A DNA stretch of 64,000 nucleotides from Candidatus Wallbacteria bacterium (GTDB lineage: Bacteria > Muiribacteriota > UBA6191 > JACPRK01). The notes below the pieces were generated by a model, which searched no databases, had not been told where the DNA came from, and saw nothing but the letters and a program-made list of their open reading frames with translations. The DNA is taken from assembly GCA_016190005.1 (NCBI GenBank), contig JACPRK010000139.1:24717-88716 (forward strand), in the 5' to 3' direction. How positions within the stretch are numbered: position 1 is the stretch's first letter; the number at the start of each line of letters is the position of its first letter. Made by a program: the position numbers and the translations under genes. Shown piece by piece: positions 1,078 through 50,523 of the stretch.

Positions 1078-3093
1078 TTGGCGAACAGGCTGACGCCACA
1101 CGAGAGTGGAGCGTCGCTTCCGCGACTCTCGCGCACCCGGTCCGGTCCGAGCCTGCTGGCGGGCGCGATGCTGGCGCTTCTGGCGGGGACGGCGCTGGGC
1201 CAAGAGGGGCTGCCGGAGGACCTGACGACGCTCAGTCTGCAGGACCTGCTCAAGGTCAGGGTCACGTCAGTGGCCAAGGTGCCTCAGTCGATCAGTCATT
1301 CGCCCGCGGCGATCTTCGTCATTCGCCAGGAAGACCTGCGCCGCTCCGGAGCCACCTGCATCCCCGAGGCGCTGCGGCTGGTCCCGGGCGTGCAGGTCGC
1401 GCGAATCGACGGCAACAAGTGGGCGATCAGCATTCGAGGCGCCGGCAGCCGTTTCTTCAACAAGCTGCTGGTGTTGATCGACGGGCGCAGCGTCTACGAT
1501 CCGCTCCACGCCGGCGTTTACTGGGATGTTCAGGACACGCTGCTGGAGGACGTCGACCGCATCGAGGTGATCCGAGGCCCGGGGGCGACTCTCTGGGGCG
1601 CCAACGCCGTCACGGGCGTGATCAACGTGATCACGAAGCCGGCCCGCGAGACCCTGGGAGGGCTGCTCTCGGCAGGCGGCGGCGACGAGACCCGCGCACT
1701 CGGGGCGTTGCGCTACGGCGCCCAGCTCGGCGACGATGCCGCCTATCGCATCTGGGGCCGATACTCGGACTGGGACGACCTGGTCCGCGCCAACGGCCGG
1801 CCCGGAGAGGACGAGCGTCAGATGACCCGTGGCGGTTTCCGCGTCGACTGGGCGCGGTCCGCACAGGACTCGGTGACCTTCACGGGGGATATCTACGACG
1901 GCACGGCGTCGAACCTGGCGAGCGTAGCCAGCCCTGCGGCACCCTCGCCCCGGATCGATTCGAGCGACATCGCCGCTTCGGGGAACAACCTGCGCATGCG
2001 GTGGCAGCGCACGCTGTCGCCAAGCTCAGACTGGGCGCTGCAGCTGTACTACGACACGAGCGATCGCACGGAGACAGGCTTCCGGGAGGCTCGCCAGACC
2101 TACGATCTCGACTTCCAGCGCCACGATCAGATCGACGAGACGCACGACTTGCTCTGGGGCGTCGGGTACCGGATGGCTTCCGACCAGCTCGGCAACGCGC
2201 CATTCATCACGATCACACCGGCCAGTCGCGACAACTCCACGGTCAGCGCGTTCATCCAGGACCGCATCGCCCTTCGGCCCCAGCGGCTGGAGTTGACGCT
2301 GGGCTCCCGATTCGAGCACAACGACTTCACCGGCTTCGAGCTCCAGCCGACGGCGCGGCTGCTCTGGACGCCGAGCAAGAGCCAGACGTGGTGGACAGCC
2401 GTGTCGAGAGCCGTCCGGACGCCCTCGCGGCTGGAGAACGATCTCGACACGCTCACACTGGGACCGACCTCGCTGGCCCGAGTGACCGGCCGCGAGCTGA
2501 TCGATTCCGAGAAGCTCCTGGCCTACGAGCTGGGGTATCGGACCCAGGCCTCACGCAAGCTCTCGGTGGATGTCTCGCTCTTCTATGAGCGTTTCCTCGA
2601 CCTGGTCGGCTCCCGCGTCGGAACGCCGGGAATCGGAGCCGGTCCCTCCGGCCCCGTGCTGGTCGTGCCATTCCGCGTGTCGCACCACGAGCAAGGCACG
2701 GCCCGCGGATTCGAGCTCTTCACGAATCTCGACGTGAGCGACCGGTGGAAGCTGGGGCTCGGCTTCTCCACGCTCGATCTGCAGCTCAGCACCGCCGGGC
2801 GCGGGAACAGCCCCAATCACCAGGCGCAGCTGCGGTCGTACCTGAAGCTCAGCGCCGACCTGGAGCTGAACACGTCGCTGGCATTCGTGGAGCGGCTCCG
2901 CGACCAAGATGTGCCGAGTTACTTCCGGCTCGATGCCCAGCTGGCGTGGCACGCAACGCCCGAGCTGGACCTGAGCCTGGTCGGACAGAACCTGCTGGAC
3001 GATCGGCACGCCGAGTTCGGAGCGCCGTCGAACCGCCTTTCGCGTCCGGAGATCGAACGGGGGGTCTATGCGAAGGCGACCTGGCATTTCTGA
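1078..3093 (+). CDS. TonB-dependent outer-membrane receptor
   Basis: Signal peptide. Plug motifs VIRQEDLRRSGATCIPEALRLVPGV, RGPGATLWGANAVTGVINVITK and the long beta-barrel region. C-terminal ...ATWHF with terminal aromatic. The true start may be an internal Met (e.g. MLALLAG). Confidence 0.85.
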   Translation: MANRLTPHESGASLPRLSRTRSGPSLLAGAMLALLAGTALGQEGLPEDLTTLSLQDLLKVRVTSVAKVPQSISHSPAAIFVIRQEDLRRSGATCIPEALRLVPGVQVARIDGNKWAISIRGAGSRFFNKLLVLIDGRSVYDPLHAGVYWDVQDTLLEDVDRIEVIRGPGATLWGANAVTGVINVITKPARETLGGLLSAGGGDETRALGALRYGAQLGDDAAYRIWGRYSDWDDLVRANGRPGEDERQMTRGGFRVDWARSAQDSVTFTGDIYDGTASNLASVASPAAPSPRIDSSDIAASGNNLRMRWQRTLSPSSDWALQLYYDTSDRTETGFREARQTYDLDFQRHDQIDETHDLLWGVGYRMASDQLGNAPFITITPASRDNSTVSAFIQDRIALRPQRLELTLGSRFEHNDFTGFELQPTARLLWTPSKSQTWWTAVSRAVRTPSRLENDLDTLTLGPTSLARVTGRELIDSEKLLAYELGYRTQASRKLSVDVSLFYERFLDLVGSRVGTPGIGAGPSGPVLVVPFRVSHHEQGTARGFELFTNLDVSDRWKLGLGFSTLDLQLSTAGRGNSPNHQAQLRSYLKLSADLELNTSLAFVERLRDQDVPSYFRLDAQLAWHATPELDLSLVGQNLLDDRHAEFGAPSNRLSRPEIERGVYAKATWHF

Positions 3094-3097
3094 GCCG

Positions 3098-3667
3098 ATG
3101 GCTGCACCGAGCTTGTTCGCCGAACGGTGGCTACGCACGCTGATGGTGGCGGCGATCCTCGGCTGGGCGGCCCCGCCGGTACCGGCTCAGATGGTCACGC
3201 CGCTGGCCTACCGCGTGAAGGCCGCCTTCGTCTACAACTTCGCGCTCTTCGTCGAGTGGCCGCGTGTTGCGCTGGGGCCCGAGCATCAGACCGTCGTGCT
3301 CGGCATCGTCGGGGACGATCCGCTCGCCACGGAGCTGGAGCAGGTCGACGGCAAGCGGATCGGCACCCGCACGCTCAGGGTCACGCGGCTGGATACCCAG
3401 CAGGAGCTCGGCGGCTGCCACATTCTCTACGTGGGCGCCTCTGAGCGGGAACGCCTTCCGTCCATCCTCGAGCGCGCGGCCGCTCATCACGTTCTGACCG
3501 TCGGCGACATGGCGAGGTTCATCGACAAGGGAGGGATGATCGGGTTCATCATCGAGGGCGAGAGCGTGCGGTTCGAAGTCTGCGTGGCTCGAGCGCAGAA
3601 AGCAGGCCTGAAGCTGAGCGCCAAGCTCCTGCAGGTGGCCCGGCTCGTCGACTGCGGGACCGACTGA
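3098..3667 (+). CDS. YfiR-like periplasmic protein (DUF4154 family)
   Basis: Signal-like N-terminus. Conserved YRVKAAFVYNFALFVEWP ... ILYVGASE ... GMIGFIIEGESVRFEVC pattern typical of DUF4154/YfiR. Start ATG 3098 lies immediately after the receptor stop. Confidence 0.6.
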   Translation: MAAPSLFAERWLRTLMVAAILGWAAPPVPAQMVTPLAYRVKAAFVYNFALFVEWPRVALGPEHQTVVLGIVGDDPLATELEQVDGKRIGTRTLRVTRLDTQQELGGCHILYVGASERERLPSILERAAAHHVLTVGDMARFIDKGGMIGFIIEGESVRFEVCVARAQKAGLKLSAKLLQVARLVDCGTD

Positions 3668-3913: not shown

Positions 3914-5188
3914 ATGACAGACGCGAAGAGCCAGGGACGAATGCTGAGGCTCCTCGTCGTCGAGGACAATCCGGTGGAACGAGAGTTCCTGTCGGCGGCA
4001 CTCCGGCGAGCCCGCTCAGACCCGATGGAGGTCACCCTCGCCGAATCCCTTGCCGAAGCCCGCAACTCGATCCGAACCAGTCACTTCGACGCCGTCCTTC
4101 TCGACCTGAGTCTTCCGGATAGTGACGGCATCGAGACGTTCCGCCGGGTTCGCGCCGATTCGCCCGAGCTGCCGATCGTCGTGCTGACGGTCTCCGAGGA
4201 TGAAGCGCAAGCCTTGCTGGCACTGCAGGAAGGCGCGCAGGACTATCTCTTCAAGGGGACCGTCGACCGCCAGGCGCTCGTCAGGTCCCTGCGGTATGCG
4301 GTGGAACGCCACCAGCTGCAACTGGCGCTGGAGAGACAGACCCGAAGGCTCTCGGAGCATCTGGAGGTGCTCCGGGGGGGATTTTCGCGTCTGGCCGCGG
4401 GCGACCTGGGGGTGCGAATCAGCGGCGATCTGGCTCCAGGAAACGAGGCCGACGGGCTGACCGGCCTGCTCGAGGACTTCGACCGGACGGTGGAGCGGCT
4501 GAGGTCGCTGAGCGAGCTGAAGGCGCAGTTCTCGTCGATGGTCTCCCACGACCTGCGCTCTCCGATGAACACCATCCTGATGGCGGTCTCGGCCCTGGAG
4601 GCGTTGCCCGACGAATCGGGCGAGCAGGAGCGGTTCCTGGGGATCATCCGGCGAAAGGCCAGCCGCATCCTGCAGCTTGCCGAGGAGCTGCTCGAGGTCT
4701 TTACGATCGAGGCGGGCCAGATGAGCCTGACGCGCTCGGAGGTCGACTTGAACCAGCTGCTCGCCGCTTGCCTGGAAGATCTCACGCCGCAGGCGCTGGC
4801 TCGCCGGCAGGTGCTCCAGCTGCAGTCACTGCCCGGCCCGTCGCGGGTCGTCTGCGACGCCGCGAAGATAGCGCGCGTGGTGGAGAACCTTGTGAACAAC
4901 GCGCTGAAGTACTCCGTCGAGGGGGACACCATCCTGGTTCGCGCAACCCGGGCGGAGCGTGGCAGGGTCCAGATCGAGGTCATCGACCACGGCAGCGGGA
5001 TTCCGGACGAGGACCTCCGGCGAGTGTTCGACCTCTTCTACCGCAGCCCGGCCAGGGAACACCTGACGGCGGGCGCCGGCCTGGGCCTGGGGATCTGCCG
5101 AGCCTTCGTGAGAGCCCACGGCGGCGAGATCTGGGCGCTGAACCAGCCCGACGGCGGCGCCCGCTTCGCCTTCGAGCTGCCGCAGTAG
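3914..5188 (+). CDS. hybrid response-regulator receiver / histidine kinase
   Basis: N-terminal REC domain (LLVVEDNP...DAVLLDLSLPDSDG...), H-box SMVSHDLRSPMN, and an HATPase_c region with NNALKYS, DHGSGIP and GAGLGLGICRAFV motifs. Confidence 0.85.
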   Translation: MTDAKSQGRMLRLLVVEDNPVEREFLSAALRRARSDPMEVTLAESLAEARNSIRTSHFDAVLLDLSLPDSDGIETFRRVRADSPELPIVVLTVSEDEAQALLALQEGAQDYLFKGTVDRQALVRSLRYAVERHQLQLALERQTRRLSEHLEVLRGGFSRLAAGDLGVRISGDLAPGNEADGLTGLLEDFDRTVERLRSLSELKAQFSSMVSHDLRSPMNTILMAVSALEALPDESGEQERFLGIIRRKASRILQLAEELLEVFTIEAGQMSLTRSEVDLNQLLAACLEDLTPQALARRQVLQLQSLPGPSRVVCDAAKIARVVENLVNNALKYSVEGDTILVRATRAERGRVQIEVIDHGSGIPDEDLRRVFDLFYRSPAREHLTAGAGLGLGICRAFVRAHGGEIWALNQPDGGARFAFELPQ

Positions 5189-5430: not shown

Positions 5431-5871
5431 ATGAAGATCCGAAAACTGCTCTTGCTCGCCCTCACGCTTGCTCTCCCCGTGGGACTGTTCGCCGCAGACG
5501 CGGCCCCGACACCCCAGGACCCGGGAGCCGCCAATCCGCCCGTCGCGTCTCCCAAGCCCGAAGATCCGCCCCCCGCAGAGCCGCCGCCTGCCGAGCCCAC
5601 TCCGCCCGCCCCGCCCGCAGAGCCTCCGCCTGCGCCCCCGGCGCCGCCCGCGCCGGCTGCCAAGGCGCTATCGTGGGTCGAAGTGACGACCTTCGCCCCC
5701 GGGCTCTGCAACTATGACGATGCTTTCAAGGCCCGGATGAAGGCCACCTGCAAGCTCAAACTGCGCTACCTGCGCCGCCAGTGCAACTTCATCGCGATGG
5801 TCAATCCCGACGCCTCCATCCGCGCCAAGGCCAAGCAGATCGCCGAAGACGCCAAGGTGCTCATCGGTTAG
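5431..5871 (+). CDS. secreted Pro/Ala-rich hypothetical protein
   Basis: AGGAG RBS 8 nt upstream. Signal peptide MKIRKLLLLALTLALPVGLFA, a PPAEPPPAEP low-complexity linker, and a structured C-terminal domain with two Cys. Confidence 0.6.
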   Translation: MKIRKLLLLALTLALPVGLFAADAAPTPQDPGAANPPVASPKPEDPPPAEPPPAEPTPPAPPAEPPPAPPAPPAPAAKALSWVEVTTFAPGLCNYDDAFKARMKATCKLKLRYLRRQCNFIAMVNPDASIRAKAKQIAEDAKVLIG

Positions 5872-5939: not shown

Positions 5940-6437
5940 TCAGAAGCCCTGCATCACGCCCAGCGCCGCTTTCGAGGTCACGTAGCGCTGGTCCAGCAGC
6001 CGCAGCCGGTGGCTCATCTCCCGCATCATACGCAGCAGGATGCGGTTCAGAACGGCAGGCTGGGTCTTCTGCATCTGCGTGAAGGCGTCGCGCCCCAGGA
6101 AGATGAGCCGCGCTTCTCCCTTGGCCTCCGCCGACGCCGCGCGCCCTTTCTCCTCGATGAGGGACATCTCGCCGAAGAATTCGCCCTCGCCGAGCGTGCC
6201 AATCAGATGCTTGCGCTTGGCGGTGTCGAGCGAGTAGATGTCGACCTCCCCCGAGAGCACGATGTACATCCCGTCGCCCGGGTCGCCCTGCTGGAAGATG
6301 GACGGACGCATCGGGCTATAGCTGCGAACCTTGGCCGTGCGCAGGAACTCCACGATGTCGTCCTTTTCCAGGTCGCTGAAGATCGCGAACCGGGCCAGGT
6401 CCGTCACCGAGACCGTCTGTCGCTGGTCTGTGGTCAT
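5940..6437 (-). CDS. cyclic-nucleotide-binding domain protein
   Basis: The cNMP-binding fold is recognisable: ...FQQGDPGDGMYIVLSGEVDIY...LGEGEFFGEMSLIEEKGRAASAEA... Confidence 0.7.
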   Translation of the reverse strand: MTTDQRQTVSVTDLARFAIFSDLEKDDIVEFLRTAKVRSYSPMRPSIFQQGDPGDGMYIVLSGEVDIYSLDTAKRKHLIGTLGEGEFFGEMSLIEEKGRAASAEAKGEARLIFLGRDAFTQMQKTQPAVLNRILLRMMREMSHRLRLLDQRYVTSKAALGVMQGF

Positions 6438-6515
6438 GCCGTGCTCAGCCTATCATGCCCCGCGGACCGAATCAGCCGGGCGGCAACATCGCTCCCGCCC
6501 TGCCGGTAGTCCGAG

Positions 6516-7610
6516 GTGATGATCGACCTTTCGAGCATGCACTTCGCGTCGACCCGCTCCTCGAAGTGTCCTTGGCGCGCGCTGGCCCTGGCGCTGGCCC
6601 TCGCACTTCCCTCCCAGGCGGCGGTGCCCGTCGTGCAGGTCACGAAGCTCCTCGACGACTCTTCGGGGGGCTCCTTCACGCTGGCCCAGGTGGGCGTCGT
6701 CGACGGCAAGAAGGTCTTCCTCAAGTCGAACCGCGGCTCCCAGCGAGGCACCCGCTACTCCAACTTCGAATCCGACATCCTCGCCCGGGCGATCTTCAAG
6801 AAGCTCGGAATTCGCTGCCCCGACGCCCGAGTGGTCCGCCTGGGACCGGGCGGCCCGACCTCGAAATGGATGGGGTCGGTCGTCCTGGCGATGCAGTACG
6901 TGGACACCCGCTTCACGCGCGGCAAGGTCCTGATGGGCCACTGGCCGGGCGCCCGCTACGCCCGGCTCGCCGAGTTCATCGACCTGGCGCTGGTCGACCT
7001 GATCATCGGTAATGGCGACCGCCGAGGCGCCAACTTCTTCGTCATGGTGGATTACGACGACGTCGAGGGCGAGCGCGGCAAGCCCGGAAGCTTCCGGCCG
7101 GTCCCCATCGACAACAACTGCGGCTTCGCCAGCATGGTCGTCTGGTCCTTCCCTACCAGCCAGACGAACTTCTTGCCGACCTACAGCGGCGTCGGCAAGG
7201 GAGAGGTCCTCTGCGACCTGGGCACCCTCGAGAACATCGCCCTCGACAGCGAGATCCTGCACGCCCTGCTGGGCGACGCCCGGATGCGGCCGCGACTGCT
7301 TGCCCGGGCGCGCGAGCTCGGAGCCATTTTGACCGACGAGTTCTTCGGCGCCCAGGTCGACGCCCTGCCGGCCGAGATCCTGCCGCGAGCCACCAAGGTC
7401 GACGCCTCCATCCTCGACAAGATGACGAAGCGAGACTTCGAGCCCTCGGCGCTCTTCGGCCCCATGTCGGGTACGCTCGAAGGGAAGGCTCTCTTCGACT
7501 ATCGCAAGGCCGAGCTCAAGCGCGTCTTTGCCTGGCGTCGCGACCACTTGGCCGAGGCGCTCGAGCAGTACTTCCAGGCCAATCCTCCGGAGAAGCCCGA
7601 GGGCGACTGA
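6516..7610 (+). CDS. secreted hypothetical protein with a PI3/PI4-kinase-like catalytic-loop motif
   Basis: Signal peptide WRALALALALALPSQAAVP. Motif DLIIGNGDRRGANFFVMV resembles the lipid-kinase catalytic loop GxGDRHxxN, with N at +5. A downstream PIDNNCGF segment sits at the DFG-like position. Confidence 0.55.
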   Translation: MMIDLSSMHFASTRSSKCPWRALALALALALPSQAAVPVVQVTKLLDDSSGGSFTLAQVGVVDGKKVFLKSNRGSQRGTRYSNFESDILARAIFKKLGIRCPDARVVRLGPGGPTSKWMGSVVLAMQYVDTRFTRGKVLMGHWPGARYARLAEFIDLALVDLIIGNGDRRGANFFVMVDYDDVEGERGKPGSFRPVPIDNNCGFASMVVWSFPTSQTNFLPTYSGVGKGEVLCDLGTLENIALDSEILHALLGDARMRPRLLARARELGAILTDEFFGAQVDALPAEILPRATKVDASILDKMTKRDFEPSALFGPMSGTLEGKALFDYRKAELKRVFAWRRDHLAEALEQYFQANPPEKPEGD

Positions 7611-7652: not shown

Positions 7653-8417
7653 TCAGGCTTCCGGATCGCCTTCGCGCCGGACCTCGACCCGGATGTTGGC
7701 GGGATCGCCAACCCATTTCAGGCTCGCCAGAAAGCCGAGGAGGATGCCGGTCAGCATCCGGCCCAGGAACGGCTTGAGCGGCAGCTCGCGGCCGTCGATG
7801 AGGACACGGACCGTCCTGCCGTCCGGGGAGAGCAGCCCTGCCATCTCCGGCGCCGCGGGTGCGATATCCTCGGCCCCGGCGGGCGGCGACTCGGGCTCTG
7901 CGGCCTGGGGCTCGCCGGCCGCAGTCGCGGAGCGCCATCTCATGACGAGGTCTGCCAGCTCCTCGGCGTCGCCGCCCAGGAAGTTTGGCGTACCTGAAAA
8001 GGGGACAGGCGCCCGCACGGTGGCGATGAGCCGGGACGGGTCCGGCACGCGAGAGAGGACTCCGCCGGGCTGGAGCGGAAAAACCTCGATCTTCGGTAGG
8101 TGCGACTGGCTGAAACCCTCGGCCAGGACCAGATCGACCTCGCCCTGGAAGTAGCGGGCCAGCGACTCCAGGCTGGGCTCCTCGCCGACGTTTCTGCGGG
8201 TGAAGACGCAGCGCGGGCCGCTCATCATGACGAGCTGGCTGCCGGCGCGAGCGTGGCGCCAGGTGTCCTTGCCCTCGCGGTCCGGCTCGGCGCCGTGGAC
8301 GTCGTGCTTGAGCGTGCCGACGCGCAGGCCGCGCTCGCGCAGCCTGGGGAGGAGCTGTTCGATGACGGTGGTCTTCCCTGAGCCGGAGAAGCCGGAGACG
8401 CAGAGGATAGGAATCAT
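7653..8417 (-). CDS. mobB: molybdopterin-guanine dinucleotide biosynthesis protein MobB fused to a C-terminal extension
   Basis: N-terminal P-loop ILCVSGFSGSGKTTVIEQLLPRLRERGLRVGTLKHDVHG is typical of MobB. The ~100-aa C-terminal extension is of unknown function. Confidence 0.7.
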   Translation of the reverse strand: MIPILCVSGFSGSGKTTVIEQLLPRLRERGLRVGTLKHDVHGAEPDREGKDTWRHARAGSQLVMMSGPRCVFTRRNVGEEPSLESLARYFQGEVDLVLAEGFSQSHLPKIEVFPLQPGGVLSRVPDPSRLIATVRAPVPFSGTPNFLGGDAEELADLVMRWRSATAAGEPQAAEPESPPAGAEDIAPAAPEMAGLLSPDGRTVRVLIDGRELPLKPFLGRMLTGILLGFLASLKWVGDPANIRVEVRREGDPEA

Positions 8418-8580
8418 GGTCGTGCGGAGGTCGGTGCCCCGCCAGGAGGACGCCCGAGTCCTCCCGACCGCGTGCGGGACGCGTGGAGAGGCCGCAACTT
8501 TCTGGCCAGAGGACCGCTCCGCTGAGCTGGCGGTCGCTCAGCGCGTACCAGAGCAGCGCATGGGTGTCCAGGAGCAGCCT

Positions 8581-8813
8581 CACGGCAAGTAGTCCGCGAA
8601 GTCCTTCAGGTGATCTTCGTCGTCGGCGACGATGGTGATCATGCCCTTCGCAAAACCCGGCCCAGGCCGCTGCCAGGTTTCTGGACGCTGGCCGACGAGT
8701 TTGGCTACGGGCTGCTGGTCGTCGGTAATGACCAACTCTTCGCCGGGGGCGAGCGTCTCGATCAGCTCCTTCAAGTGGGCTTGAGCTTCCCACAACTCGA
8801 TTCGGCGGGCCAT
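8581..8813 (-). CDS. antitoxin-like protein (Phd/YefM-like N-terminus, DUF2281-like C-terminus)
   Basis: MARRIELWEAQAHLKELIE...ELVITDDQQPVAKLV resembles type II antitoxins. The C-terminal DDEDHLKDFADYLP resembles the DUF2281 tail. Confidence 0.45.
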
Positions 8814-8844
8814 CGACTGACCCGTTCGACAACGAGACAACAAG

Positions 8845-9240
8845 TCAGTCGCGAAGCTGATACGGCGCTACGGCGTCCAGCCCCTTGATCCCTTTGTAGT
8901 GCTTGAGGTTTCGGGTGAGCAAGCTCAGCCCTCGGTTGAGGGCGGTGGCCGCGATCAGGCTGCCAGCCATGCCGATGCCGGTCTCCGGTCTGTGCCTTCG
9001 CAGGAGTTGCCGCGCAAGCACCGAGTCGTGTGCCGTCAGCGGCAGCAGGCTGAGCCGGGCTGCAAATGCGTCCAGCTTCCGCCGATCCCAGCGATTCTGA
9101 CAACCCACCACCAGTTCCATGTCCGTCACGACGGACATGGCCAAGCTGCCGGTGCGTGCCGAATCAAAGAACTCGACTGCTTCCGGTAGCCGCCGGATAA
9201 AGTCCACGCAGACGTCCGTATCGACAAGGAAGCGGCTCAC
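8845..9240 (-). CDS. vapC: PIN-domain toxin VapC
   Basis: GTG start overlaps the vapB stop in a GTGA arrangement. N-terminal VSRFLVDTDVCVDF carries the PIN acidic residues, and the C-terminal ...LLTRNLKHYKGIKGL is PIN-like. Confidence 0.7.
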   Translation of the reverse strand: MSRFLVDTDVCVDFIRRLPEAVEFFDSARTGSLAMSVVTDMELVVGCQNRWDRRKLDAFAARLSLLPLTAHDSVLARQLLRRHRPETGIGMAGSLIAATALNRGLSLLTRNLKHYKGIKGLDAVAPYQLRD

Positions 9241-9500
9241 CGCTCCCAGCGTCTTTCCTCGCGCCGCCGCAGTTCCTGCACCCACTTCACGCTGTCCTTC
9301 ATGTCTTCGCGGTCTTTCCACATGCCGCAGGCGGCAAGTTCGCTGAGGGGCCGCTTCGAGTGGCGAACGGGCGTGATCGACTCGGCCTCCAGATCGTCGG
9401 TCAAGACCCTGACCAGCTTGGCCCGCTGCGCGGGGCTGAGTTTCTTGGCCTGGGAGACGACTTCGGCGAAGTTCGGTTTCTGAACGGTGGCGCGAGCCAT
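9237..9500 (-). CDS. vapB: VapB-type antitoxin
   Basis: MARATVQKPNFAEVVSQAKKLSPAQRAKLVRVL... GAGGAGAGGA RBS 6 nt upstream of ATG 9500. 4-nt overlap with vapC. Confidence 0.6.
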   Translation of the reverse strand: MARATVQKPNFAEVVSQAKKLSPAQRAKLVRVLTDDLEAESITPVRHSKRPLSELAACGMWKDREDMKDSVKWVQELRRREERRWER

Positions 9501-10112
9501 GGCGATCCTCTCCTCGAAGAAGATCATACGTCGAGGGAGCGGAGCGGACAAGAGCCGCCATACTGGCCCGCGACGAGGACATTGCTGCCCTGCGACTTCG
9601 TATAGGTGACGTGCTGTTCACGGAAGGCGGAGACAGGGACAAGCCGGGTCGTGGCTGGGTATGGAATGACGAAGCTGCTGAGTGCATCCATCAGAATCAC
9701 ATTTTCCGCGCAAGGCTGTTTCTGTCCGAAGTCGAACCGAGGTTCGTCTCGCTCCACGGCAACACGTTTGGGCAGGAGTCGCGCTCCGCTGGTACTCTCG
9801 AGGCGAGATTTCTCACGAGTAAGCAGCCGAAACTGCAGGCCTGAACCGGCGGGATTTCACGCTTGCTCTCGCCCGCGAACAGGTTGTCGCCATCGTGGGA
9901 GCGACTCGCTGCTCCGTGGCAGCCGCCTCTGGATGAAGATGATCGACAGGCTCTCATCCCTCTCCGGATACGTCATCTCGCGCATCTTCCGCATCAAACT
10001 CGGGGCGGAGCAGGCTCGGGCCGGGTCGAAAAAGCCAGCGGGCCTACGGGCTGAAATCCCCAAGAGCGAGAGCGGCCTCCGATCTCTCGGAAGCCGCTCG
10101 TGGACTGCGCTT

Positions 10113-10199
10113 TGGTGCCGAAGAGGGGACTCGAACCCCTACGGGATTACTCCCACTGGTCCCTGAAACCAGCGCGTCTACCAATTCCACCACTTCGGC
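10113..10199 (-). tRNA. tRNA-Leu (anticodon CAG)
   Basis: Reverse complement GCCGAAGTGGTGGAATTGGTAGACGCGCTGGTTTCAGGGACCAGTGGGAGTAATCCCGTAGGGGTTCGAGTCCCCTCTTCGGCACCA. It has a 7-bp acceptor stem, an anticodon loop TTCAGGG (CAG), a long variable arm, a GGTTCGAGTCC T-arm and an encoded CCA. Confidence 0.85.
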
Positions 10200-10334
10200 G
10201 GAGCGAGGGGAGGGTAGCAGAGATGGCCCTCTGGGTCAAGGAAATCGACGTGGCGGAGCGCGAAGCCAGGACACCCGGCAGACCTGGACCGGACGGCTCG
10301 GGCGCCCGGGAACGTCCTCGTGACCCGGAGCTGC

Positions 10335-11000
10335 TCAGCCCCCTCGAACCAGCGCCTCCAGACAGGCCTGCAGAAGGGCCGGCGAGCCGCCGGAATCGGC
10401 CAGGTAGCGCACCAGCGCAAGCAGATCGCCGAGCTCGTCGACGTCCCGCAACTCGGGAAGCAGCTCGACCGTCAGCCCGAGGGAACCGCAGCGCGCCAGC
10501 GTCCTCGAGAGCACGGCCGGCGTGCTCCAGGGGATTCCGGCGAAGAGACCCGGGCACGGCGACCGCAACGCCATCAGATAGTAGCCCCCGTCGGTGGCGG
10601 GACCGAGGACGACATCGGCCACTCCCAGCAGCTCGAAGGCTCGCCGGACGAGGGGCGCCCCCAGTTGCGGAGAGTCCGAACCGATGACAGCAGCGCGCTC
10701 GTACCCCCGACGGAAGGCCTCCTCGAACGCGCCTGCCATGCGCAGGCCGAGGTCTCCGCCGGACTGCGGCTCGACTGTCCACCCGGGTGGCGCCAGCCGG
10801 CGCGCGCGCTCGGACTCCTCCGCAGGCGCGAAGTAAAGCGCCCTGTCGCAGCCGGCGCCCTCCCCCAGCTCGATCGTCTCCCGAAGGAACGCCTCCGCGA
10901 GCCGCGCGGCCCGCTCGTCGCCAATGGACGCGGCAAGCCGGGTCTTGCAGCTCCCGGGCAACGGGACCTTGGCGAACACGATGAGGAGTTCCTTCGACAT
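10335..11000 (-). CDS. DUF2064 / TIGR04282-family protein (glycosyltransferase-associated)
   Basis: MSKELLIVFAKVPLPGSCKTRLA... DGGYYLMALR matches the DUF2064 pattern. An alternative upstream Met exists. Confidence 0.6.
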   Translation of the reverse strand: MSKELLIVFAKVPLPGSCKTRLAASIGDERAARLAEAFLRETIELGEGAGCDRALYFAPAEESERARRLAPPGWTVEPQSGGDLGLRMAGAFEEAFRRGYERAAVIGSDSPQLGAPLVRRAFELLGVADVVLGPATDGGYYLMALRSPCPGLFAGIPWSTPAVLSRTLARCGSLGLTVELLPELRDVDELGDLLALVRYLADSGGSPALLQACLEALVRGG

Positions 11001-49966: not shown

Positions 49967-50523
49967 GGACTCCTCCGCTTCAAGGTAAGAACGTTACCCC
50001 GTTTGCCGGCGCTGTCGTCAAGCCGCTGTCGCAAGAAGCTACGGGCCCGGTGGACCCGAGAGAGCACCGTGCCCAGGGGCAGGTCGAGCTCTCGGGCCGT
50101 CTCCCGGCAACTGACTCCCAGTAACAGGACCATCAGAAACGGGAGCTTGAACCGATCGTCCATGGCGTCGAGTGCCGCTTGCAGCGGCTCCGAGCATTCC
50201 GAATCACCCTCCGACGCGTCCCGTGTGGGCGTGTCGGCGTCCTGGAGCAGCTCGACACTGTCGTCGACCTGGGGACGCCGTCCGAGATCGCGCAGCAGGT
50301 GCGCGTGGCGGAATCGCAGGATTCGGAATAGCCATGCCCGAGCGGAGGACGGTTCCCGCAGATCCGGCAGCGAACGCCAGGCTTCGGTGAAGGTCTCCTG
50401 GACCAGATCCTCCGCTGTTTCGCGGCGGCCCGTCAATCGGAAGGCGATCCGGAAGAGCTCCTCGGAGTGGTCGCGGACGAGCCGTTCGAAGAGGGGCCGG
50501 AGCTCGTTGGGAACGGTCTGCAT
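49963..50523 (-). CDS. ECF-type RNA polymerase sigma factor
   Basis: DLVQETFTEAWRSLPDL...RAWLFRILRFRHAHLLR (region 2) and FLMVLLLGVSCRETARELDLPLGTVLSRVHRARSFLRQRL (region 4). Confidence 0.8.
   Translation of the reverse strand: MQTVPNELRPLFERLVRDHSEELFRIAFRLTGRRETAEDLVQETFTEAWRSLPDLREPSSARAWLFRILRFRHAHLLRDLGRRPQVDDSVELLQDADTPTRDASEGDSECSEPLQAALDAMDDRFKLPFLMVLLLGVSCRETARELDLPLGTVLSRVHRARSFLRQRLDDSAGKRGNVLTLKRRSP

What the first reader, a model, noticed from the sequence alone, without database searches (positions are those of the whole stretch)
6516..7610. Secreted protein carrying a lipid-kinase-like GNGDRxxxN catalytic loop
Signal peptide plus the motif IIGNGDRRGANFFVMV, with a later IDNNCGF segment. 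This mirrors the PI3K/PI4K catalytic loop (GxGDRHxxN) and DFG region, but with His replaced by Arg and DFG replaced by DNN. It could be a divergent atypical kinase or a pseudokinase exported to the periplasm or outside the cell. Bacterial proteins with this fold are often effectors. A cNMP-binding protein is encoded convergently next door.
Basis: partly seen in the sequence, partly recalled or inferred. Interest (0 to 1): 0.55.

Follow-up and report, generated by a model that had tools for sequence, protein, structure and literature searches.

The report
Exported atypical kinase of uncultivated bacteria
The gene encodes a signal-peptide-bearing enzyme with a protein-kinase-like fold and a full set of conserved catalytic residues; it belongs to a rare, unnamed family related to actin-fragmin kinase, CtkA, CotH and type II PI 4-kinases, and its substrate is unknown.

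Summary
ORF 6516-7610 (+) is a real gene: GC3 is 0.90, and dN/dS is 0.12 against a Candidatus Wallbacteria MAG. It carries LIIGNGDRRGANFF and PIDNNCGF behind a signal-peptide-like N-terminus.

The kinase reading is supported.
- Two AlphaFold models (pLDDT 81 and 92.5) give a bilobal fold. Its best PDB matches are all kinases: CotH, CtkA, PI4KII-alpha/beta and HipA, at TM about 0.45-0.55.
- A 53-sequence family profile hits actin-fragmin kinase (E 7e-7), CtkA and FAM20A by sequence.
- Lys70, Glu85, Asp168, Arg169, Asn173 and Asp199 are kept in 52-53 of 53 relatives. This argues for an active enzyme, not a pseudokinase.
- "DRR/DNN" is a subfamily variant of "DRH/DHN" seen in more distant relatives, and the two positions co-vary.

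The query matches no Pfam or NCBIfam model. The family is tiny: 56 clusters among 1.84 billion representatives, and 3 of 185,579 species genomes. It has no conserved gene neighbours. Nearly all full-length members have signal peptides, and some relatives are fused to phage MuF head proteins.

MobB is the convergent neighbour.

Substrate and site of action are inferred, not shown.

The parts
6516..7610 (+). Gene for the exported kinase-like protein (364 aa from GTG 6516; likely true start ATG 6519 or ATG 6537)
   Evidence: ORF; GC3 0.904; dN/dS 0.12 against the Wallbacteria MAG copy L008; 11 close and about 45 distant homologues
6537..6620 (+). Predicted Sec signal peptide: n-region MHFASTRSSKCPWR, h-region ALALALALAL, c-region PSQA, with cleavage predicted before AVP
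   Evidence: Hydrophobicity and charge scan of the query and all relatives. The predicted cleavage position aligns just before the conserved (D/E)LP that opens the domain. AF2 gives an unpacked, low-confidence helix at 20-29. No SignalP run was available.
6666..6680 (+). Glycine-rich nucleotide-binding loop equivalent (GGSFT, residues 51-55) between the first two N-lobe strands
   Evidence: G52 is kept in 50 of 53 relatives. It lies in the loop between strands 42-47 and 57-62 of the model. The functional role is inferred.
6714..6728 (+). Beta3 strand VFLKS with Lys70, the predicted ATP-phosphate-binding lysine
   Evidence: K70 is kept in 52 of 53 relatives; strand 65-71 in the model
6762..6776 (+). 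Start of the alphaC-equivalent helix (NFESD) with Glu85, the predicted ion-pair partner of Lys70
   Evidence: E85 is kept in 52 of 53. Helix 84-96 in the model. This segment aligns to N-I-E-S-E of actin-fragmin kinase 1cja.
6885..6905 (+). Beta5 and hinge segment LAMQYVD (residues 124-130)
   Evidence: L124, A125, M126, V129 and D130 are invariant in the close family; strand 122-127 in the model
7008..7034 (+). Catalytic loop GNGDRRGAN (residues 165-173): Asp168 is the predicted catalytic base, Arg169 the PI3K/AFK-type structural Arg, Asn173 a predicted Mg ligand
   Evidence: D168, R169 and N173 are kept in 53 of 53. The loop aligns with the catalytic loops of AFK, CtkA, FAM20A and PI4KII. Role of the Arg is taken from PMC1261164.
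7104..7127 (+). DFG-equivalent segment PIDNNCGF (residues 197-204): Asp199 is the predicted metal-binding Asp
   Evidence: D199 is kept in 53 of 53. Position 200 is N in 25 and H in 26; N201 is kept in 48 of 53. It aligns to 'VPID' of AFK.
7128..7226 (+). Long conserved loop after the DNN motif (ASMVVWSFPTSQTNFLPTYSGVGKGEVLCDLGT). It sits where an activation or substrate-binding segment would be.
   Evidence: P213, F219, Y223, G225, D234, G236 and T237 are invariant or nearly so in the close family. No regular secondary structure but high pLDDT. The role is inferred.
7482..7580 (+). Long C-terminal helix (residues 323-355) with the family signature R330...WRRDHL
   Evidence: R330 and R341 are kept in 53 of 53, R342 in 51 of 53. 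Helix 323-355 in the model. It aligns across both clades in hhalign.

Best explanation
[quoted passage not shown] The window encodes a TonB-dependent receptor, so the organism is probably diderm. The first destination would then be the periplasm, with possible onward release.

The mature protein of about 330 residues most likely binds Mg-ATP and transfers the gamma-phosphate to a hydroxyl group. The predicted roles are:
- a Gly-rich loop (G51-G52) and the Lys70-Glu85 pair hold the nucleotide between the two lobes
- Asp168 acts as catalytic base
- Asn173 and Asp199 hold the metal
- Arg169 braces the catalytic loop, as in PI3K and actin-fragmin kinase

Most of its nearest characterised relatives are protein Ser/Thr kinases (actin-fragmin kinase, CtkA, CotH, FAM20, HipA). 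The most likely substrate is therefore a protein outside the cytoplasm: envelope or surface proteins, or proteins of another cell.

Shown: the gene, fold, homology, residue conservation and signal-peptide-like N-terminus. Inferred: catalysis, substrate class and final location.
For: Real gene under purifying selection: GC3 0.904; dN/dS 0.12.

Fold: AF2 pLDDT 80.9 with 12 sequences and 92.5 (pTM 0.88) with 53 sequences. Foldseek against PDB gives CotH 5jd9 at E 9.7e-6 (TM 0.45), PI4KII-alpha 4hne at 5.9e-5, CtkA 3akk/3akl at 6e-5 (TM up to 0.55) and HipA 3tpv at 1.9e-4. All top 50 matches are kinases.

Sequence:
- The family profile hits AFK 1cja at E 7.3e-7, from alphaC through the catalytic loop to 'PID'. 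It also hits CtkA at 9.6e-4 and FAM20A at 1.1e-3.
- The distant clade alone hits AFK at 1.4e-5 and CtkA at 3e-4.
- The close and distant clades are linked by hhalign at probability 100%, E 5e-49, over the whole domain.
- Distant members pass Pfam cut-offs for PI3_PI4_kinase (40.4 and 42.3 bits against 27.1) and HipA_2.
- One close member passes the CotH cut-off (25.3 against 23.8).

Catalytic set: K70 and E85 in 52 of 53; D168, R169, N173 and D199 in 53 of 53. The Asp-Arg pair is the PI3K/AFK hallmark (PMC1261164).

Export: signal-peptide-like N-termini occur in almost all full-length relatives. Some have a lipobox instead, such as P0017 LAGC. A TonB-dependent receptor is encoded at 1078-3093.
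Against: - No biochemical data exist for any member.
- The query itself matches no Pfam or NCBIfam model. The close-family profile alone finds no kinase in PDB sequences.
- Structural matches are only moderate (TM 0.45-0.55), so no solved kinase is a close model for substrate binding.
- ATP is generally thought to be scarce outside the cytoplasm (my own background knowledge), which makes an exported ATP-dependent kinase awkward unless it acts inside another cell or uses released ATP.
- The signal peptide was judged by simple rules, not by a trained predictor.
- No conserved neighbour hints at a substrate.
- PI4KII (a lipid kinase) and NahK (a sugar kinase) are among the structural matches, so a non-protein substrate is possible.
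Confidence: 0.6

Rival explanations
1. It is an exported lipid or small-molecule kinase, acting for example on an envelope lipid, a sugar or a secreted metabolite, rather than a protein kinase.
For: The catalytic-loop motif is of the PI3K/PI4K type. Type II PI 4-kinases are among the best structural matches (4hne at E 5.9e-5; 4wtv), as is N-acetylhexosamine kinase at lower TM. Distant relatives pass the Pfam PI3_PI4_kinase threshold. Per PMC1261164, AFK and PI3K are flat-faced enzymes and specificity has switched between lipid and protein in this branch.
Against: The best sequence match (AFK) and most structural matches (CotH, CtkA, HipA, FAM20) are protein kinases. No lipid-binding or membrane-anchoring element was seen beyond the signal peptide. 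There are no neighbouring lipid or sugar metabolism genes.
Confidence: 0.2
2. It uses the kinase fold for a different nucleotide-dependent reaction, such as AMPylation as in SelO or another ATP-dependent modification. Alternatively it is a non-catalytic binding protein (pseudokinase).
For: That several kinase-fold families catalyse non-kinase reactions is my own background knowledge, not tested here. The His usual in DRH is replaced by Arg, and the position after the metal-binding Asp differs from the relatives.
Against: Every residue needed for canonical phosphotransfer is conserved in 52-53 of 53 relatives, and spacing in the catalytic loop is canonical. Pseudokinases typically lose one or more of these residues. 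The Arg/His position varies freely in relatives (H in 28, R in 20, also T, S, N, L), so it is not part of the essential set. SelO did not appear among the matches.
Confidence: 0.12
3. The hydrophobic N-terminus is not a cleaved signal peptide, and the enzyme works in the cytoplasm or as a membrane-anchored protein facing the cytoplasm.
For: No dedicated signal-peptide predictor could be run. The start codon is uncertain (GTG 6516, ATG 6519 or ATG 6537). A few relatives lack the hydrophobic N-terminus (P0016, P0021, P0023) and the MuF fusions have none.
Against: The n/h/c layout, with a small residue at -1 just before the conserved (D/E)LP, recurs in nearly all full-length members of both clades, across sequences only 25-55% identical. 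Some members have lipoboxes instead. A positive n-region would orient even an uncleaved anchor with the domain outside.
Confidence: 0.08

Closest known systems
Actin-fragmin kinase of Physarum polycephalum (PDB 1cja)
   Same: It is the best sequence match of the family profile (E 7.3e-7). The match runs from the alphaC 'N-x-E-[AS]-E' segment through 'D-x-x-x-x-N-x-D-R' to 'PID'. Both share the Asp-Arg catalytic-loop pair that PMC1261164 describes as specific to AFK and PI3K.
   Different: AFK has a unique insertion between the DR and the Asn of the catalytic loop (PMC1261164); here the spacing is canonical. AFK is not among the top 50 Foldseek matches. From my own knowledge, AFK is a cytosolic eukaryotic enzyme. 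This protein is bacterial, has a signal peptide and ends in a family-specific WRRDHL helix.
Helicobacter pylori CtkA (PDB 3akj/3akk/3akl)
   Same: Bacterial single-domain atypical Ser/Thr kinase. Foldseek E 6e-5 and TM up to 0.55 normalised to CtkA. Profile hit at E 9.6e-4 over 'D-x-L-[IL]-G-N-x-D-R-H-x-G-N'. From my own knowledge, CtkA also acts outside the producing cell.
   Different: Only about 12% identity. The sequence match is restricted to the catalytic loop. CtkA has DRH, not DRR.
CotH spore-coat kinases (Pfam PF08757; PDB 5jd9/5jda)
   Same: Top Foldseek hit (E 9.7e-6, TM 0.45). Six of 12 close family members give weak CotH hits over the catalytic region, and one exceeds the curated cut-off (25.3 against 23.8 bits).
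   Different: The query itself has no CotH hit. Matches cover only profile positions about 170-298 of 322. Identity is 12%. The CotH sequence is only a marginal hit of the family profile (E 2.3).
Type II phosphatidylinositol 4-kinases and the Pfam PI3_PI4_kinase family (PF00454)
   Same: GxxDRxxxN catalytic loop followed by a 'D-N/H-x' metal-binding segment. Foldseek hits to PI4KII-alpha and PI4KII-beta at E 6e-5 to 6e-4. Distant relatives pass the Pfam threshold.
   Different: The query and its close family fall below the threshold (best E 0.027). TM is only 0.3-0.37. It is not known to act on lipids.
HipA / HipA_2 toxin kinases (PF07804, PF20613)
   Same: Distant relatives reach the HipA_2 threshold (32.8 and 27.8 bits against 27). 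HipA structures are matched at E 2e-4.
   Different: There is no HipA N-terminal domain and no HipB-like neighbour, and a signal peptide is present.

Membership tests
Protein-kinase-like (PKL) superfamily | Bilobal fold: beta-rich N-lobe with an alphaC helix, and a helical C-lobe | tested here: met
   AF2 models at pLDDT 80.9 and 92.5. All top 50 Foldseek PDB matches are kinases, at probability up to 1.00.
Protein-kinase-like (PKL) superfamily | Conserved beta3 Lys, alphaC Glu, catalytic-loop Asp and Asn, and metal-binding Asp | tested here: met
   K70 and E85 in 52 of 53; D168, N173 and D199 in 53 of 53
Protein-kinase-like (PKL) superfamily | ATP-dependent phosphotransfer activity | not testable with these tools
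   Needs biochemistry
PI3K/AFK branch of the atypical kinases | Arg immediately after the catalytic Asp, replacing the His/Tyr contact of typical kinases (PMC1261164) | tested here: met
   R169 is kept in 53 of 53. That it makes the structural contact itself was not checked, because no model coordinates were available.
Pfam PI3_PI4_kinase (PF00454) | Score above the curated cut-off (27.1 bits) | tested here: not met
   No hit for the query. Close members score 11.7-14.8 bits. Only distant relatives pass.
Pfam PI3_PI4_kinase (PF00454) | DRH in the catalytic loop and DFG as the metal-binding motif | tested here: not met
   The query has DRR and DNN. Relatives have DRH and DHN.
Actin-fragmin kinase | Significant sequence similarity over the catalytic core | tested here: met
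   Family profile against 1cja: E 7.3e-7, 31.6 bits. This holds at family level only; the close-family profile alone gave no hit.
Actin-fragmin kinase | AFK-specific insertion within the catalytic loop after the Arg (PMC1261164) | tested here: not met
   D168 to N173 spacing is canonical, and the alignment to 1cja needs a gap at this point.
CotH (PF08757) | Score above the curated cut-off (23.8 bits) over most of the model | tested here: not met
   No hit for the query. One homologue reaches 25.3 bits, but only over profile positions 170-298 of 322.
HipA toxin kinases | HipA N-terminal domain and an adjacent HipB-type antitoxin | tested here: not met
   The protein is a single domain starting right after the signal peptide. 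Neighbours are a cNMP-binding protein and MobB.
Sec-exported proteins | N-terminal positive n-region, hydrophobic h-region of 10-15 residues, and small residues at -3/-1 | tested here: met
   Rule-based scan of the query and relatives; the -3/-1 reading is by eye. The feature is conserved across the family, but no trained predictor and no experiment were available.

The most novel reading that the evidence does not exclude
This is a founding member of an undescribed family of Sec-exported kinases of the PI4KII/AFK type that phosphorylate targets outside the bacterial cytoplasm: the envelope, the cell surface or neighbouring cells. Sister domains are carried in phage heads as MuF fusions and presumably injected. 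If so, extracytoplasmic or inter-cellular phosphorylation would be a recurrent strategy in uncultivated bacteria and their phages.
Probability: 0.3. Interest if true: 0.6.

Novelty: new variant of a known kind. Interest (0 to 1): 0.42.

Why it matters
Atypical kinases that leave the producing cell (CotH, FAM20C, CtkA, Legionella effectors; my own background knowledge) have repeatedly turned out to have unexpected substrates and chemistries. This family matches no curated model and is confined to uncultivated lineages (Wallbacteria, Riflebacteria and others).

It combines an intact catalytic core with a conserved export signal. That raises a concrete and testable question: what does an ATP-dependent enzyme do outside the cytoplasm of a free-living groundwater bacterium?

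The link to phage MuF-fused versions suggests the domain is also used as a delivered effector. It is a good candidate for biochemical characterisation, but it is not a conceptual surprise. The fold, the motifs and the idea of secreted kinases are all established.

Tried and rejected
- Direct Pfam, NCBIfam and PDB-sequence searches with the query alone gave nothing meaningful. The only hits were spurious (LBR_tudor, CYLD).
- The close-family profile (12 sequences) against PDB sequences also found no kinase. Only after adding distant relatives did AFK, CtkA and FAM20A appear.
- I looked for a conserved gene neighbourhood in four other loci. There is none; contexts include GidA/GidB, hydrogenase, xanthine dehydrogenase, and a PTP plus a Pkinase gene. 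The upstream secreted Pro-rich ORF in the window is unrelated to the upstream ORF in L001. An operon partner or substrate hint, including the cNMP-binding gene, is therefore rejected.
- The PADLOC defence models gave no hit for the query and only weak catalytic-loop hits for relatives. A defence-system role is not supported.
- PHROGs gave no hit for the query, but phrog_3162 (unknown function) matches distant relatives.
- A profile search of the word-indexed protein collection added nothing new.
- Cluster look-ups gave only 'hypothetical protein' names.
- The promoter and terminator scan found nothing.
- The antisense 364-aa ORF (6453-7547) was rejected as a GC-driven shadow ORF.
- Literature searches for MuF or polyvalent-protein kinases described different kinase domains, not this one.

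Full report
**1. The observation**

The window is about 66% G+C. ORF 6516-7610 on the plus strand encodes 364 residues. Its third-codon-position G+C is 0.904. The equally long antisense ORF 6453-7547 has its G+C peak at position 1, so it is a shadow ORF.

The stated motifs are present:
- LIIGNGDRRGANFFVMV, with GNGDRRGAN at residues 165-173 (nt 7008-7034)
- PIDNNCGF at residues 197-204 (nt 7104-7127)

The pattern GxGDRxxxN occurs once in the six-frame translation of the whole window. A nearly identical gene (97% protein identity, no gaps) lies on a Candidatus Wallbacteria groundwater MAG (L008). The two copies differ by 29 synonymous and 11 non-synonymous changes, giving dN/dS of 0.12. The gene is therefore real and under purifying selection.

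The N-terminus has a basic stretch, a ten-residue Ala/Leu core and PSQA|AV. NCBI gene models of the MAG copies start at the residues equivalent to ATG 6519 or ATG 6537.

One detail of the finding is wrong. The cNMP-binding gene (5940-6437, minus strand; Pfam cNMP_binding at E 1e-22) is transcribed divergently from the kinase-like gene. The convergent neighbour is mobB (7653-8417, minus strand).

**2. Relatives**

The query alone matches no Pfam or NCBIfam model and no PDB sequence. A word-indexed search of 5.8 billion proteins found 11 homologues at 46-98% identity, all unnamed or 'hypothetical'.

An exhaustive phmmer scan of 1.84 billion cluster representatives found only 56 proteins at E of 1e-3 or better, and 15 at 1e-30 or better. 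One of the 56 (P0032) is a spurious repeat-protein hit. Only 3 of 185,579 species-representative genomes carry a close relative: the Wallbacteria MAG and two 'uncultured bacterium' MAGs. Other members are labelled Riflebacteria or Wallbacteria. The family is rare and confined to uncultivated lineages.

Within the close family the invariant residues include G51, G52, K70, E85, D130, N166, D168, R169, R170, N173, D199, N200, N201 and W340-R-R-D343.

The more distant relatives (23-31% identity) are often longer, at 400-1100 residues. They carry the canonical GNGDRHxxN and PIDHN. Several exceed Pfam's curated cut-offs for PI3_PI4_kinase (P0045 40.4 bits, P0049 42.3 bits, against 27.1) or HipA_2. 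A profile-profile comparison of the close family (A1) with this distant clade (A3) gives probability 100% and E 5e-49. The alignment runs from the signal peptide to the C-terminal WRRDHL helix.

Across all 53 aligned sequences:
- K70 and E85 are kept in 52 of 53
- D161, D168, R169, N173, D199, R330 and R341 are kept in 53 of 53
- Position 170 is His in 28 and Arg in 20
- Position 200 is His in 26 and Asn in 25

Positions 170 and 200 largely co-vary: DRH goes with DHN and DRR with DNN, with a few DRH/DNN intermediates. They are not a loss of catalytic residues.

**3. Fold**

AlphaFold2 with the 12-sequence alignment gave pLDDT 80.9 and pTM 0.81. With the 53-sequence alignment it gave pLDDT 92.5 and pTM 0.88.

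The secondary-structure order matches a kinase:
- three N-lobe strands (42-47, 57-62, 65-71)
- a helix (84-96)
- two more strands (104-109, 122-127)
- a helix (151-164) leading into the GNGDRRGAN loop
- two short strands (174-178, 193-197) leading into DNN
- a long ordered loop, then a helical C-lobe ending in a 33-residue helix (323-355)

Foldseek against the PDB returned only kinases in the top 50 for both models:

| Match | E-value | TM |
|---|---|---|
| B. cereus CotH (5jd9) | 9.7e-6 | 0.45 |
| PI4KII-alpha (4hne) | 5.9e-5 | about 0.36 |
| H. pylori CtkA (3akk/3akl) | 6e-5 | up to 0.55 (normalised to target) |
| HipA (3tpv) | 1.9e-4 | about 0.3 |
| PI4KII-beta, N-acetylhexosamine kinase | weaker | lower |
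| Typical protein kinases | weaker still | lower |

The TM-scores are moderate, so this is a distinct family within the superfamily.

By sequence, the 53-member profile hits these:
- actin-fragmin kinase 1cja at E 7.3e-7, aligned from the NxE[AS]E alphaC segment through the catalytic loop to PID
- CtkA at 9.6e-4
- FAM20A at 1.1e-3
- HipA at 0.05
- PI4KII-alpha at 0.06

The distant clade alone repeats the AFK and CtkA hits. Scheeff and Bourne (PMC1261164) describe the Arg directly after the catalytic Asp as a feature shared only by AFK and PI3K. The invariant D168-R169 fits that branch. AFK's unique catalytic-loop insertion is absent here.

**4. Export**

Nearly every full-length relative, in both clades, starts with a positively charged stretch and then a hydrophobic run (Kyte-Doolittle maximum 2-3.5 over 10 residues). 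By my reading of the listed N-termini, a small residue then precedes the conserved (D/E)LP that opens the domain. A few have a lipobox-like Cys instead, such as P0017 LAGC.

Exceptions are a few members with non-hydrophobic N-termini and four proteins in which the domain is fused to the C-terminus of a phage MuF/'minor capsid protein 2' module (P0049, P0055, P0062, P0065).

The best BFVD structural matches are likewise phage proteins. They are annotated as a PI3/4-kinase catalytic domain protein, a head-morphogenesis protein or an ADP-ribosyltransferase.

The window encodes a TonB-dependent receptor (1078-3093), so the organism probably has an outer membrane. A Sec substrate would then first reach the periplasm. 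No trained signal-peptide predictor was available, so export is a well-supported inference, not a demonstration.

**5. Context**

The neighbours in the window are:
- a hybrid histidine kinase
- a small secreted Pro-rich ORF
- a cNMP-binding protein (divergent)
- MobB (convergent)
- toxin-antitoxin genes
- tRNA-Leu

Four other loci with homologues have entirely different neighbours. The upstream ORFs are unrelated. The gene is a stand-alone unit, and context gives no clue to its substrate. No promoter or terminator consensus was found.

**6. Most likely mechanism**

This is an exported, catalytically competent Mg-ATP-dependent phosphotransferase of the PI3K/AFK/CtkA branch of atypical kinases. 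The residue roles below are inferred by homology:
- the G51-G52 loop, K70 and E85 bind the nucleotide
- D168 is the catalytic base
- N173 and D199 are metal ligands
- R169 braces the catalytic loop

The conserved 202-237 loop and the WRRDHL helix are family-specific and probably shape the substrate site.

Most of the nearest characterised relatives phosphorylate proteins on Ser/Thr, so a protein substrate is the best guess. A lipid or small-molecule substrate is the main rival, given the PI4KII and NahK matches. A non-kinase reaction, or a cytoplasmic location, are less likely rivals. A pseudokinase is unlikely because the whole catalytic set is conserved.

The chief difficulty is the source of ATP outside the cytoplasm. 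That ATP is scarce there is my own background knowledge. The MuF-fused relatives suggest that the domain can work after delivery into another cell.

**7. Comparison and novelty**

It works like an atypical protein kinase and belongs to the protein-kinase-like superfamily. It fails the curated thresholds of PI3_PI4_kinase, CotH and HipA families, and it lacks AFK's defining insertion. It should therefore not be filed as a member of any of them.

It is best described as a new, rare, signal-peptide-bearing variant within the PI3K/AFK/CtkA-like group. I found no paper describing it, but the library searched is incomplete.

**8. Verdict**

Interest is moderate. This is a solid lead for enzymology of exported bacterial kinases, but it is not conceptually new.

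Noticed in passing
proteins P0049, P0055, P0062, P0065 (relatives from metagenomes; not in the window): The same kinase-like domain (GNGDRH...PIDHN...WRRD) is fused to the C-terminus of phage MuF/'minor capsid protein 2' head proteins. It also matches phrog_3162 (unknown function). The best BFVD structural matches are such phage proteins. This suggests a head-packaged, injected kinase effector.
   Followed up: partly
alignment A2, query positions 170 and 200: The residue after Asp-Arg in the catalytic loop (His or Arg) and the residue after the metal-binding Asp (His or Asn) co-vary between clades. DRH goes with DHN and DRR with DNN, with a few DRH/DNN intermediates. This hints that the two side chains are neighbours in the active site.
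   Followed up: partly
window 6453-7547 (-): A 364-aa antisense ORF almost exactly overlaps the kinase-like gene. Its GC1 is 0.90 and GC3 is 0.64, which marks it as a shadow ORF of a high-GC gene, not a gene.
   Followed up: yes
window 5431-5871 (+): A 146-aa ORF with a signal-peptide-like start (MKIRKLLLLALTLALPVGLFAADA) and a Pro/Ala-rich PAEPP repeat region. It has no Pfam hit and is unrelated to the ORF upstream of the homologue in L001.
   Followed up: partly
window 3914-5188 (+): A hybrid sensor kinase with an N-terminal receiver domain followed by HisKA and HATPase_c, preceded by a YfiR/HmsC-like protein (3068-3667) and a TonB-dependent receptor (1078-3093).
   Followed up: no
window 8440-9690 (-): Toxin-antitoxin remnants. 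There is a Phd/YefM-like antitoxin (8580-8843) followed by what looks like only the first ~20 residues of a PIN/VapC toxin (LLLDTHALLWYALSDRQLS) before mobB starts. There is also a separate PIN-domain ORF (8845-9687, PIN at residues 154-262, so its true start is probably much later).
   Followed up: partly
window 10113-10199 (-) and 50130-50216 (-): tRNA-Leu(CAG) and tRNA-Cys(GCA) genes. The long ORFs overlapping 10100-10700 on both strands are probably artefacts of high G+C.
   Followed up: no
L006 1509-4078 (-): In one homologue's locus, a protein-tyrosine-phosphatase-like gene and a Pkinase gene lie just upstream of the kinase-like gene. This is not seen in the other loci, so it is probably coincidental.
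   Followed up: no
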